Below are positions 25,060 to 37,289 of a stretch of DNA of 55,847 nt, one piece after another (position 1 is the stretch's first letter; the number at the start of each line of letters is the position of its first letter). Both the position numbers and the translations under genes were made by a program. Origin of the DNA: Bacilli bacterium (GTDB taxonomy: Bacteria; Bacillota_I; Bacilli_A; ML615J-28; CAG-698); the NCBI GenBank assembly GCA_028702495.1, contig JAQVOS010000003.1, positions 1 to 55,847 of the forward strand. The letters are read 5' to 3'. The notes below the pieces were generated by a model. That model saw only the letters and a program-made list of their open reading frames with translations. It ran no database searches and was not told the origin of the DNA.

Positions 25060-25087
25060 TTGAATAAGTAAAATAAATGGGTATAAT
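25060..25087 (+). promoter_or_regulatory. Promoter directly upstream of the fluoride riboswitch
   Basis: TTGAAT-16 nt-TATAAT; predicted start site coincides with the aptamer 5' end. Confidence 0.55.
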
Positions 25088-25093
25088 ATATGA

Positions 25094-25154
25094 ATGGAAA
25101 TGATGTTCTTCCATAAGATTTCTTAGAACCGCACTTAAAGCTAATGACATCTAC
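25094..25154 (+). ncRNA. Fluoride (crcB) riboswitch aptamer
   Basis: ATGGAA-ATGATGTTC-TTCCAT P1; AACCGC...GCTAATGAC; pseudoknot GATGT/ACATC ending in CTAC. Confidence 0.85.
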
Positions 25155-25201
25155 AATCACTGGACATTTTTAACCAGCATTTGTAGTTGCATTGGCTTTT
25201 T
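25140..25201 (+). terminator. Riboswitch expression-platform terminator overlapping the aptamer 3' end
   Basis: gctaatg..ctacaa pairs with ttgtag..cattggc, followed by TTTTT. Confidence 0.7.
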
Positions 25202-25216
25202 ATATAAGGAGAGAGT

Positions 25217-26437
25217 ATGTTATTTAGCTTAGCACTGATTTTCATTTTAGGATTAGGACTTGGAGGGTTATTTAAAAGAATACACTTACCCTCATTACTG
25301 GCATTTTTGCTGATTGGCATTGGGTTAGGTCCTTATGGGTTCAATTTGATTGATGAAAGAATATTGGGTATCTCCAGTGAACTTCGTCAAATTGCCCTCA
25401 TTATCATATTAACTCGTGGAGCCCTTGCTCTCAATTTAAAAGAGCTAAAAGCGATTGGAAAATCTGCGATTTTCATGTGTTTTCTTCCTGCTGTTTTTGA
25501 AATCATTGCCGTTACCCTTTTAGGAGTATTACTCTTTAAAATGCCGGTTTTTGAAGCCATCCTCTTAGGAAGCATATTAGGAGCGGTATCACCAGCGGTA
25601 ATTATTCCTAAAATGCTTCATATGATGGAAAATCATCATGGGACTCAAAAATCGATTCCTCAACTCATCATTGCTGGAGCGAGTGCCGATGATATTTTCG
25701 TTGTCCTAATTTTTACGGCTACTTTAGGAATTCTTCAAACAGGAACAGTGGAAATGGCAAGCATTCTTCAAGTACCCACTGGAATGATTTTAGGAGCGAT
25801 CGTTGGACTCATCCTAGGGTTATCACTCGTTGCTTTCTTTAAAAATGTCCACATGCGGGATAGTGTTAAAATAATACTGTTATTAGCTCTTTCGTTCTTA
25901 CTAGTAGCAGTGGAAGAAGGATTAAAAGGAACCTTTGGTTTTTCAGGACTCATTGGTCTTATTACTATGAATTTAACCATTGGTCAACAATATGCGATAT
26001 TATCAACACGTCTATCACAAAAGTATACCAAGCTATGGATTGTTGCTGAAATGTTTCTCTTTGTTTTAGTAGGAGCAATTGTCAATTTTAAATTATTTAT
26101 TCCCCACTTATTGAAAGGATTCCTCCTCATCATGGGTGCCTTAGTCGTTCGTTTCTTGGGGGTCATGTTCTCAATTCAATCTATGAAATTAAATTGGAAG
26201 GAACGCTTTTTTTGTGGGATTAGTTATTTACCGAAAGCAACTGTTCAAGCAGCCATCGGCGCCATTCCTCTTACCCTTGGACTTCCGAATGGTGAACTCA
26301 TTTTAGCCATTGCGGTAGTAAGTATTTTACTAACCGCCCCCATTGGCGCTATTCTAATGGACATCACCGCTAAAACTTTAGTTCCTTTTGATGCCATTAC
26401 AAAAAAGAAACATGCTCCCGATTTAGCGAAAAATTAG
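25217..26437 (+). CDS. Cation:proton antiporter (CPA/Na+/H+ exchanger family)
   Basis: About 12 TM segments; LGAVSPAVIIP, GASADDIF, YLPKATVQAAIG. Confidence 0.85.
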   Translation: MLFSLALIFILGLGLGGLFKRIHLPSLLAFLLIGIGLGPYGFNLIDERILGISSELRQIALIIILTRGALALNLKELKAIGKSAIFMCFLPAVFEIIAVTLLGVLLFKMPVFEAILLGSILGAVSPAVIIPKMLHMMENHHGTQKSIPQLIIAGASADDIFVVLIFTATLGILQTGTVEMASILQVPTGMILGAIVGLILGLSLVAFFKNVHMRDSVKIILLLALSFLLVAVEEGLKGTFGFSGLIGLITMNLTIGQQYAILSTRLSQKYTKLWIVAEMFLFVLVGAIVNFKLFIPHLLKGFLLIMGALVVRFLGVMFSIQSMKLNWKERFFCGISYLPKATVQAAIGAIPLTLGLPNGELILAIAVVSILLTAPIGAILMDITAKTLVPFDAITKKKHAPDLAKN

Positions 26438-37124: not shown

Positions 37125-37209
37125 GGTGGGGTAGCGAAGTGGCTAAACGCGGTGGACTGTAAATCCACTCACTCAGTGTTCGGTGGTTCGAATCCACTCC
37201 CCACCACCA
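37125..37209 (+). tRNA. tRNA-Tyr (GTA)
   Basis: GGTGGGG/CCCCACC acceptor stem, anticodon arm gtgga-ctGTAaa-tccac, long variable arm, GGTTCGAATCC, encoded CCA. Confidence 0.95.
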
Positions 37210-37215
37210 TTTTCT

Positions 37216-37289
37216 AGGGCCATAGCCAAGCGGTAAGGCAAAGGACTTTGACTCCTTCATCTCTGGTTCAAATCCAGATGGCCCTGCCA
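37216..37289 (+). tRNA. tRNA-Gln (TTG)
   Basis: AGGGCCA/TGGCCCT acceptor stem, aagga-ctTTGac-tcctt anticodon arm, encoded CCA. Confidence 0.95.

What the first reader, a model, noticed from the sequence alone, without database searches (positions are those of the whole stretch)
25060..26437. Fluoride riboswitch controlling a cation:proton antiporter instead of Fluc or CLC-F
Seen: promoter, complete crcB-motif aptamer starting at the predicted transcription start, overlapping terminator with U-tract, then a CPA-family gene. Established: fluoride riboswitches are ON switches for fluoride-defence genes; the proven exporters are Fluc/CrcB and CLC-F, and Na+/H+ antiporter-like genes are recurring associates with less clear function. 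Inference: this antiporter is a candidate fluoride exporter or a fluoride-stress pH/ion homeostasis protein.
Basis: partly seen in the sequence, partly recalled or inferred. Interest (0 to 1): 0.62.

Follow-up and report, generated by a model that had tools for sequence, protein, structure and literature searches.

The report
Fluoride riboswitch driving NHA2-like antiporter
A genuine fluoride-sensing RNA switch turns on a sodium/proton-exchanger-type membrane protein in a small-genome bacterium that has neither known fluoride exporter; the pairing is already known, but here it is almost the only fluoride-switch output across the whole lineage.

Summary
Window 25087-25160 (+) matches the Rfam Fluoride model above its gathering score. 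Its pseudoknot carries two compensatory changes relative to the consensus. A strong terminator (25137-25201) overlaps the 3' half of the aptamer. The gene at 25217-26437 encodes a 406-aa CPA protein.

The protein is closest to mammalian NHA2/SLC9B2 (30% identity). It keeps every NHA2 cation-site residue (E95, D158, D159, R312, K340, T342). It is therefore most likely a cation/proton exchanger and not a fluoride carrier.

The genome has no CrcB and no CLC. So do nearly all its relatives: 341 of 401 genomes sampled from the phylum have neither. The absence is a lineage trait and is not specific to carriers of this gene.

In that sample, 61 of 74 fluoride riboswitches sit directly upstream of an ortholog of this antiporter, and about 65-67 if divergent copies are counted. 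Only 3 precede CrcB or CLC-F.

The riboswitch-antiporter association has been in print since 2010-2012, and the antiporter's role is untested. Verdict: a new member of a known kind. It raises one testable question: how do exporter-less bacteria use this antiporter against fluoride?

The parts
25060..25087 (+). Sigma-70-like promoter: -35 TTGAAT (25060-25065), 16-nt spacer, -10 TATAAT (25082-25087)
   Evidence: Consensus scan, 10 of 12 matches. Well placed relative to the aptamer, but such sites are no more frequent here than in shuffled sequence.
25087..25160 (+). Fluoride riboswitch aptamer (crcB motif). P1 is 25096-25099 with 25109-25112. The pseudoknot is 25102-25106 (GAUGU) with 25147-25151 (ACAUC). 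An optional linker hairpin lies at about 25114-25125. The short second helix pairs G25131-C25141 and C25132-G25140.
   Evidence: RF01734 at 37.8 bits against a gathering score of 34. All 16 invariant columns of a 36-sequence alignment are present. Pseudoknot covariation is shown.
25137..25201 (+). Intrinsic terminator (expression platform). The stem spans 25137-25199 (G+C-rich core 25140-25196) and the U-tract is 25197-25201. Its 5' arm overlaps the aptamer's 3' strands.
   Evidence: RNA fold: dG -24 kcal/mol, z -6.5, 0 of 200 shuffles as stable. The same hairpin appears in the fold of the whole leader.
25206..25215 (+). Ribosome-binding site AAGGAGAGAG, 5 nt from GGAG to the ATG
   Evidence: Read directly from the sequence.
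25217..26437 (+). Gene for a 406-aa NHA2/SLC9B-like cation:proton antiporter (P0001). Key residues: E95, S125-P126 (unwound TM), D158-D159, R312, K340, T342.
   Evidence: Pfam PF00999 at 136 bits. PDB NHA2 entries 7p1i/7b4l at E 1e-37. AF2 model with pLDDT 83, best Foldseek match NHA2. Residue conservation in 145 homologs.

Best explanation
This is a transcription-termination ON switch of the known fluoride riboswitch class.

Without fluoride, the leader RNA folds into the terminator (25137-25201) and transcription stops before the gene. With the Mg2+-fluoride complex bound, the pseudoknot (25102-06 with 25147-51) and the short second helix hold the terminator's 5' arm. The polymerase then reads through into the gene at 25217-26437.

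The gene encodes a 13-helix antiporter with the NhaA fold. It belongs to a bacterial clade related to animal NHA2/SLC9B2. All cation-site residues are retained, so it most likely exchanges Na+ (or Li+) for H+ and does not carry F-.

Its job under fluoride stress is to correct the proton/cation imbalance that HF entry causes. The most likely direction is expelling H+ in exchange for Na+. The less likely direction is letting H+ in, which would shrink the pH gradient that traps F-.

Shown here: aptamer, terminator overlap, protein family, conserved residues, strict genomic linkage. Inferred: ligand response, substrate, direction of transport, benefit to the cell.
For: The aptamer scores above the Rfam cut-off. 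The pseudoknot strands GAUGU/ACAUC differ from the consensus GGAGU/ACUCC by two compensatory changes. The terminator overlaps the aptamer.

P0001 matches NHA2 structures at E 1.7e-37 and 30% identity. The residues defined for NHA2 in PMC8850199 are E214, D277, D278, R431, K459 and T461. Their counterparts E95, D158, D159, R312, K340 and T342 are invariant or nearly so in 145 homologs.

All nine riboswitch-positive relatives in the same order have the switch 30-60 nt upstream of their ortholog. So do 11 of 14 distant orthologs in Clostridia. In 401 genomes of the phylum, 61 of 74 riboswitches precede an ortholog (odds ratio 50, p 8e-37). Three more precede a divergent copy.

On the protein tree, the 11 members without a switch need 11 separate changes. 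The link is therefore ancestral and the losses are sporadic.

The 2024 review PMC11139923 reads these antiporters as pH-homeostasis genes.
Against: The Rfam score is only 3.8 bits above the cut-off, and the second helix has just two canonical pairs.

In a cell without any fluoride exporter, HF entry reaches equilibrium and gives no sustained acid load. The plain pH-homeostasis reading therefore explains the benefit less well here than in bacteria that also have Fluc or CLC-F.

About 30% of orthologs in the phylum have no riboswitch. Seven of these were checked at E<=1 and none was found. The family is therefore not exclusively fluoride-linked.

In the sister species (75% identical ortholog), the aptamer has mutations at otherwise invariant positions.
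Confidence: 0.78

Rival explanations
1. The antiporter works as a pH-gradient clamp. It lets H+ in while Na+ or K+ leaves, which lowers cytoplasmic pH slightly. Trapped F- then re-protonates and leaves as HF. This would be an exporter-independent way to lower internal fluoride.
For: The genome, and 77 of 95 antiporter-bearing genomes in the phylum sample, have no CrcB and no CLC at all. Without an exporter, internal F- is set by the pH gradient (established weak-acid physics, also in PMC11139923). The riboswitch-antiporter cassette occurs as a stand-alone unit and appears to have moved between lineages. This suggests it is useful by itself.
Against: This is pure inference and no data give the direction of transport. 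In C. difficile, an NhaP-type antiporter shares a riboswitch operon with CLC-F (PMC11477304). That fits H+ removal better. Whether that gene belongs to this clade was not tested. Lowering cytoplasmic pH has costs of its own.
Confidence: 0.15
2. The protein is itself a fluoride exporter, a third bacterial class beside Fluc and CLC-F. It would move F- coupled to H+ or Na+.
For: It is the dominant riboswitch output in a phylum where known exporters are nearly absent. CrcB and this antiporter never co-occur in the sample (0 of 9 CrcB genomes). The NHA2 structure paper notes an earlier, disputed proposal that the related insect NHA1 co-transports H+ and Cl- (PMC8850199).
Against: Every residue of the NHA2 cation site and its salt bridge is conserved. 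This includes both acidic residues of the DD motif, which would repel an anion. NHA2 itself showed no Cl- transport (PMC8850199). The CrcB exclusion is not significant (expected 2.1, p about 0.1). Some genomes carry both this antiporter and a CLC-F-like gene (G390, G314).
Confidence: 0.05
3. The RNA match is a decayed or chance look-alike, and the gene is simply an ordinary housekeeping antiporter behind a leader terminator.
For: The score is only 3.8 bits above the gathering cut-off. The sister species has lost invariant aptamer positions while keeping the terminator.
Against: E is 5.8e-07 for the window. All 16 invariant columns are present, and the pseudoknot, which the model does not score, is intact with compensatory changes. 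The same arrangement is found in dozens of genomes. A second, unregulated CPA paralog exists for housekeeping.
Confidence: 0.02

Closest known systems
Fluoride-riboswitch-associated Na+/H+ (K+) antiporter genes. Sources: Weinberg 2010 (PMC2864571); Baker 2012 as cited in Stockbridge & Wackett 2024 (PMC11139923); the C. difficile CD0656-0657 operon (PMC11477304).
   Same: Same riboswitch class, same ON logic, and the same broad protein superfamily downstream. The review calls these antiporters the next most common riboswitch-associated class after the exporters.
   Different: Here the antiporter is the only transporter under fluoride control, in a genome without Fluc or CLC-F. In C. difficile it shares an operon with CLC-F. 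I found no paper that tests the function of any such antiporter.
Mammalian NHA2 / SLC9B2 (PDB 7B4L, 7P1I; PMC8850199)
   Same: 30% identity over about 390 residues. Shared features: the DD motif, the Arg-Glu salt bridge that replaces the lysine of electrogenic NapA/NhaA, the LPKATVQ and AVSPAV unwound segments, and the NhaA fold (TM-score 0.70-0.76).
   Different: The bacterial protein lacks the 80-residue cytoplasmic N-terminus and the extra domain-swapped helix TM-1. It therefore has 13 helices where NHA2 has 14. Its substrate and stoichiometry are untested.
Terminator-type fluoride riboswitches in front of crcB or eriC-F (Rfam RF01734)
   Same: P1, pseudoknot, conserved core nucleotides, and a terminator whose 5' arm overlaps the 3' end of the aptamer.
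   Different: In this lineage the aptamer carries an extra hairpin in the linker after P1, and its second helix has only two base pairs. This lowers its Rfam score.
Li+- and Na+-sensing riboswitches controlling nhaA-type antiporters (PMC9646797)
   Same: An ion-sensing riboswitch switches on a cation/proton antiporter.
   Different: Those switches sense the transported cation itself. Here the sensed ion (F-) is probably not the transported one.

Membership tests
Fluoride riboswitch (crcB motif, RF01734) | Covariance-model score at or above the curated gathering score | tested here: met
   37.8 bits against 34, E 5.8e-07, full model 1-64. Same result in the whole-genome search.
Fluoride riboswitch (crcB motif, RF01734) | P1 helix closing the loop AUGxxGUU | tested here: met
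   GGAA 25096-99 pairs with UUCC 25109-12. Columns 10-13 with 23-26 of alignment A2.
Fluoride riboswitch (crcB motif, RF01734) | Pseudoknot between the P1 loop and the 3' tail | tested here: met
   GAUGU 25102-06 pairs with ACAUC 25147-51. Across 36 sequences it is 98.3% paired, and 3 of 5 pairs change on both sides.
Fluoride riboswitch (crcB motif, RF01734) | Second helix (4 pairs in the Rfam consensus) | tested here: inconclusive
   Only G25131-C25141 and C25132-G25140 pair, followed by an A.A mismatch that cmscan flags. The same two-pair form is seen in many relatives, where it is 95.8% paired.
Fluoride riboswitch (crcB motif, RF01734) | Expression platform mutually exclusive with the folded aptamer | tested here: met
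   The terminator's 5' arm (25137-25156) contains the second helix's 3' strand and the pseudoknot's 3' strand.
Fluoride riboswitch (crcB motif, RF01734) | Binds fluoride (with Mg2+) and raises expression | not testable with these tools
   Needs in-line probing, a termination assay or a reporter.
CPA superfamily (Pfam Na_H_Exchanger PF00999) | Profile score above the curated cut-off over the whole transmembrane domain | tested here: met
   136.2 bits against 26.2, residues 9-379 of 406.
NHA2 / SLC9B-type exchangers | DD motif (NHA2 D277, D278) | tested here: met
   D158 and D159. D159 is invariant and D158 is present in 144 of 145 homologs.
NHA2 / SLC9B-type exchangers | Arg-Glu salt bridge (R431-E214) in place of the lysine of electrogenic NapA/NhaA, plus K459 and T461 in the broken helix | tested here: met
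   R312 (143 of 145). E95, K340 and T342 (145 of 145).
NHA2 / SLC9B-type exchangers | 14-helix architecture with the N-terminal domain-swapped helix TM-1 | tested here: not met
   P0001 residue 3 aligns to NHA2 position 115. The AF2 model has 13 membrane helices. About 30 NHA2 residues stay unaligned in Foldseek.
NHA2 / SLC9B-type exchangers | Electroneutral Na+/Li+ : H+ exchange | not testable with these tools
   Needs liposome or solid-supported-membrane assays.
K+/H+ antiporter equivalogs of NCBIfam (NF003716 and relatives) | Score above the equivalog cut-off | tested here: not met
   79.4 bits against a cut-off of 355.
Fluc / CrcB fluoride channels | CRCB domain (PF02537) in this protein or anywhere in the genome | tested here: not met
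   No hit in the genome. tblastn with CrcB proteins from the same phylum gave nothing better than E 2.
CLC-F fluoride/proton antiporters | CLC domain with the GNNLI/GMGLI and GREGT/V signatures | tested here: not met
   No CLC domain in the genome. tblastn with three CLC-F-like proteins gave a best E of 0.36.

The most novel reading that the evidence does not exclude
This NHA2-like antiporter clade is a stand-alone fluoride-resistance determinant that does not depend on an exporter. It would be the principal one in a whole phylum-level lineage of small-genome, Mollicutes/Acholeplasma-like bacteria that lack Fluc and CLC-F. It would protect either by clamping the pH gradient so that trapped fluoride leaves as HF, or by carrying fluoride itself.
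Probability: 0.3. Interest if true: 0.7.

Novelty: new member of a known kind. Interest (0 to 1): 0.38.

Why it matters
Current reviews say that bacteria typically carry Fluc or CLC-F and treat the riboswitch-linked Na+/H+ antiporters as helpers for pH homeostasis.

This lineage differs. About 85% of the sampled genomes have neither exporter, and close to nine in ten fluoride riboswitches drive this one antiporter clade. If the antiporter protects on its own, it would be a third route to fluoride tolerance. It would also explain how many gut and digester bacteria with reduced genomes cope with fluoride.

The protein is a compact bacterial relative of human NHA2, a medically studied exchanger. 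It may therefore be a convenient model for that family.

If it is only a pH helper, the finding is routine.

Tried and rejected
- A third Rfam hit in the genome (contig 68, 22 bits) lies inside a coding region on the other strand and is below the cut-off. I treated it as chance.
- I looked for anticorrelation between the antiporter and the exporters. CrcB: 0 of 95 antiporter genomes against 9 of 306 others (p 0.12). Any CLC: 18 of 95 against 38 of 306 (p 0.13). Neither is significant, because exporters are rare everywhere in the phylum. The idea that the antiporter replaces the exporter therefore gets no statistical support from this sample.
- The three CLCs in the same order are chloride-type (GSGIP-like and GxEGP motifs), not CLC-F.
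- The riboswitch model finds nothing upstream of the 75%-identical ortholog in the sister species, even at E<=1. By eye, that leader keeps the pseudoknot and terminator but has changes at otherwise invariant positions.
- Seven other orthologs without a switch were rechecked at E<=1, and none was found.
- Literature searches for any functional test of a fluoride-riboswitch-linked antiporter found none. Baker 2012 (PMC4140402) is not held, so its gene list is cited second-hand.

Full report
OBSERVATION. The Rfam scan of the whole window gives three hits above gathering score: two tRNAs, and the Fluoride riboswitch (RF01734) at 25087-25160 on the + strand. The riboswitch hit scores 37.8 bits against a cut-off of 34 (E 5.8e-07) and covers the full model. 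A promoter-like site lies just upstream: TTGAAT at 25060, a 16-nt spacer, then TATAAT ending at 25087. The scan finds no more such sites than in shuffled sequence, so the promoter is plausible but not shown. The ORF at 25217-26437 (406 aa) follows a good Shine-Dalgarno sequence.

ANATOMY OF THE SWITCH. P1 is GGAA 25096-99 paired with UUCC 25109-12. The P1 loop strand GAUGU (25102-06) can pair with ACAUC (25147-51). The Rfam consensus has GGAGU and ACUCC at these positions, so this copy differs by two compensatory changes in a pseudoknot that the covariance model does not score.

I aligned 36 aptamers: this one, the genome's second copy, 8 from the same order, 20 from the phylum and 6 from Clostridia. 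I then counted pairs for P1, the pseudoknot and the second helix.
- 91.8% of cells pair, against 44-65% when partners are slid by 1-3 columns.
- The pseudoknot is 98.3% paired, and three of its five pairs change on both sides.
- The second helix has only two canonical pairs here (G25131-C25141, C25132-G25140). Many relatives share this form.
- Most copies in this lineage also carry an extra small hairpin in the linker after P1 (here about 25114-25125).

These two peculiarities explain the modest Rfam score.

Downstream, 25137-25199 folds into a long hairpin (dG -24 kcal/mol, z -6.5, 0 of 200 shuffles as stable), followed by UUUUU at 25197-25201. The same hairpin appears in the fold of the whole leader. 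Its 5' arm contains the 3' strand of the second helix and the 3' strand of the pseudoknot, so the terminator and the folded aptamer exclude each other. This is the classical ON-switch design described for crcB RNAs (PMC2864571).

THE PROTEIN.
- Pfam: Na_H_Exchanger at 136 bits.
- NCBIfam: only weak similarity to K+/H+ antiporter equivalogs, 79 bits against a cut-off of 355.
- Solved structures: the best sequence matches are mammalian NHA2/SLC9B2 (7p1i and 7b4l, E 1.7e-37). MjNhaP1 follows far behind at E 2e-08.
- Model: AlphaFold from 35 homologs, pLDDT 83 and pTM 0.81. It matches NHA2 best in Foldseek (E 5e-15, 30% identity, TM-score 0.70-0.76), then NhaP and NapA.

The NHA2 structure paper defines the ion site as D277 and D278, an R431-E214 salt bridge that replaces the lysine of electrogenic NapA/NhaA, and K459 and T461 in the broken helix. 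It shows electroneutral Na+/Li+: H+ exchange with no K+ or Cl- transport (PMC8850199). The counterparts in P0001 are D158, D159, R312, E95, K340 and T342. Each is invariant or nearly so in 145 homologs. The protein lacks NHA2's cytoplasmic N-terminus and extra helix TM-1, so it has 13 helices where NHA2 has 14. It works like an NHA2-type exchanger but is not a full architectural member of SLC9B.

THE GENOME. The assembly is 1.51 Mb in 83 contigs, 37% G+C and 93.7% complete. It has no CRCB domain and no CLC domain. tblastn with CrcB and CLC-F-like proteins taken from the same phylum gives only noise. A second, stronger fluoride riboswitch lies on contig 37 (41 bits). It heads an operon of a NifU_N-like protein and a GGGtGRT protein (PF14057). 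A second CPA paralog, with no riboswitch hit nearby, lies on the same contig. The sister species keeps the local gene order GH4 - BadF-type kinase - antiporter - Maf - M42 peptidase - Hsp33.

RELATIVES. I searched 61 genomes of the same order.
- None has CrcB.
- Three have a CLC, and all three are chloride-type by their signature motifs.
- Nine genomes, this one included, have a riboswitch above the cut-off. In all nine, a riboswitch sits 30-60 nt upstream of a P0001 ortholog on the same strand.

Among 14 distant orthologs, mostly Clostridia, 11 have the riboswitch directly upstream at 44-60 bits.

I then sampled 401 genomes across the phylum. These are small genomes of 0.6-3.4 Mb, all of one class, and include families that read TGA as sense.
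- 95 carry an ortholog at E<1e-60.
- 9 carry CrcB.
- 56 carry some CLC.
- 73 carry a riboswitch above the cut-off.

Cross-tabulation gives:
- Of 74 riboswitches, 61 lie directly upstream of an ortholog, 2 upstream of CrcB and 1 upstream of a CLC-F-like gene.
- Of the 10 left over, three precede a more divergent NHA2-like gene with the same motifs. One lies 419 nt from an ortholog. One or two precede antiporter fragments. About 65-67 of 74 switches therefore serve this clade.
- The association of riboswitch and antiporter has odds ratio 50 and p 8e-37.
- 77 of 95 antiporter genomes have neither CrcB nor any CLC.
- So do 264 of 306 genomes without the antiporter, and the tests for anticorrelation are not significant (p 0.12-0.13).
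- By signature motifs, only two or three antiporter genomes carry a CLC-F-like gene (G390, G314, perhaps G233).

The correct statement is therefore that this whole lineage largely lacks the known exporters, and that where it has a fluoride switch, the output is nearly always this antiporter. The data do not show that the antiporter replaces an exporter.

EVOLUTION. I built a tree of 52 orthologs rooted with the genome's own paralog. The 11 members without a switch are scattered singly and need 11 changes, so the link is ancestral and the losses are sporadic. The tree also mixes families and even phyla. Members of this genome's family fall in five separate places, which suggests the riboswitch-gene cassette moves horizontally. 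Seven switch-less orthologs were rechecked at E<=1 and remain negative.

MECHANISM AND RIVALS. The RNA part is well supported. For the protein, the conserved acidic cation site argues strongly for cation/proton exchange and against anion transport.

The usual reading is pH homeostasis after HF entry (PMC11139923). That fits best in cells that also export F-, because HF entry followed by F- export leaves protons behind continuously. In a cell with no exporter, HF entry reaches equilibrium, and the toxic species is the trapped F- itself. A plausible alternative is therefore that the exchanger shrinks the pH gradient so that F- leaves as HF. Both directions are possible for an electroneutral exchanger, and sequence cannot distinguish them.

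I rate the readings as follows:
- Generic cation/proton reading: about 0.78. H+ extrusion is the likelier direction.
- pH-clamp variant, as a distinct mechanism: about 0.15.
- Direct fluoride export: about 0.05.
- Non-functional or chance RNA: about 0.02.

WHAT IS KNOWN. The crcB motif was reported in 2010 upstream of K+ and Cl- transport genes, with overlapping terminators (PMC2864571). A 2024 review, citing Baker 2012, states that after the exporters the next most common riboswitch-associated class is Na+/H+ antiporters (PMC11139923). C. difficile has riboswitch - CLC-F - NhaP-type antiporter (PMC11477304). I found no paper that tests such an antiporter.

Earlier notes from this scan describe the same pairing in other genomes. 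I treated them as leads and re-tested their main claims here. Other notes on this genome call it Acholeplasma-like or wall-less. I did not test that.

VERDICT. This is a real and well-formed example of a known association: a new member of a known kind. The added value is comparative. The antiporter is NHA2-like with an intact cation site, and its clade is ancestrally wired to the fluoride switch. In this exporter-poor lineage it is almost the only fluoride-switch output. That turns the question of what riboswitch-linked antiporters do into a clean test in a crcB-deleted laboratory strain.

LIMITS. The genome is a draft. CLC-F was called by motifs only. The large riboswitch scan used stricter filters that can lose weak matches. 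The phylum is known to me only by the tool's unnamed groups.

Noticed in passing
G000 contig 37: 15612-15681 (+), which is L004 3613-3682; genes at L004 3803-4522 and 4473-5540: A second, stronger fluoride riboswitch (41 bits) in the same genome heads an operon of a NifU_N-like 239-aa protein and a GGGtGRT protein (PF14057, 643 bits). Both have unknown function, and I found no paper linking them to fluoride.
   Followed up: partly
L013 1501-1570 and 1728-1797 (G013 contig 6: 22553-22622 and 22780-22849): Two fluoride aptamers in tandem, 227 nt apart and with identical scores (36.9 bits), sit upstream of the antiporter ortholog in a genome of the same family.
   Followed up: no
L024 2005-2140, minus strand (G001, same genus): The 75%-identical ortholog in the sister species keeps the terminator and the pseudoknot strands. 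It has changes at otherwise invariant aptamer positions (GG to AG, AUG to AAG, CCGC lost), and no Rfam hit even at E<=1. The switch may be decaying there.
   Followed up: partly
Phylum sample of 401 genomes: 341 of 401 genomes have neither a CRCB domain nor any CLC domain. This lineage is an exception to the statement that bacteria typically carry one of the two fluoride exporters.
   Followed up: partly
L094, L097, L099, L100, L101, L106, L107, L145: A CLC subgroup of about 420-450 aa carries GTNxII and GREGA in place of the published CLC-F signatures (GNNLI/GMGLI, GREGT/V) or the chloride-type ones (GSGIP, GxEGP). Its anion specificity is unclear.
   Followed up: no
L111-L113 (G179, G440, G333): The highest-scoring riboswitches of the phylum sample (58-60 bits) precede a divergent, long-branched NHA2-like antiporter. 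It fell below my ortholog cut-off but keeps the AVSPAV, SADD and LPKATVQ motifs.
   Followed up: partly
Tree of 52 orthologs: The antiporter tree disagrees with genome taxonomy. Members of this genome's family fall in five places, and a Ruminococcus and a Cloacimonadales copy nest among them. This suggests horizontal spread of the riboswitch-gene cassette.
   Followed up: partly
L033 (G014), L032 (G029) and several f6 genomes: Some orthologs carry in-frame stops. TAA or TAG stops suggest pseudogenes. The 2-5 in-frame TGA codons in 0.7-1.0 Mb genomes fit TGA read as tryptophan.
   Followed up: no
window 37125-37286: Two adjacent tRNA genes on the + strand (Rfam 61.6 and 66.5 bits).
   Followed up: no
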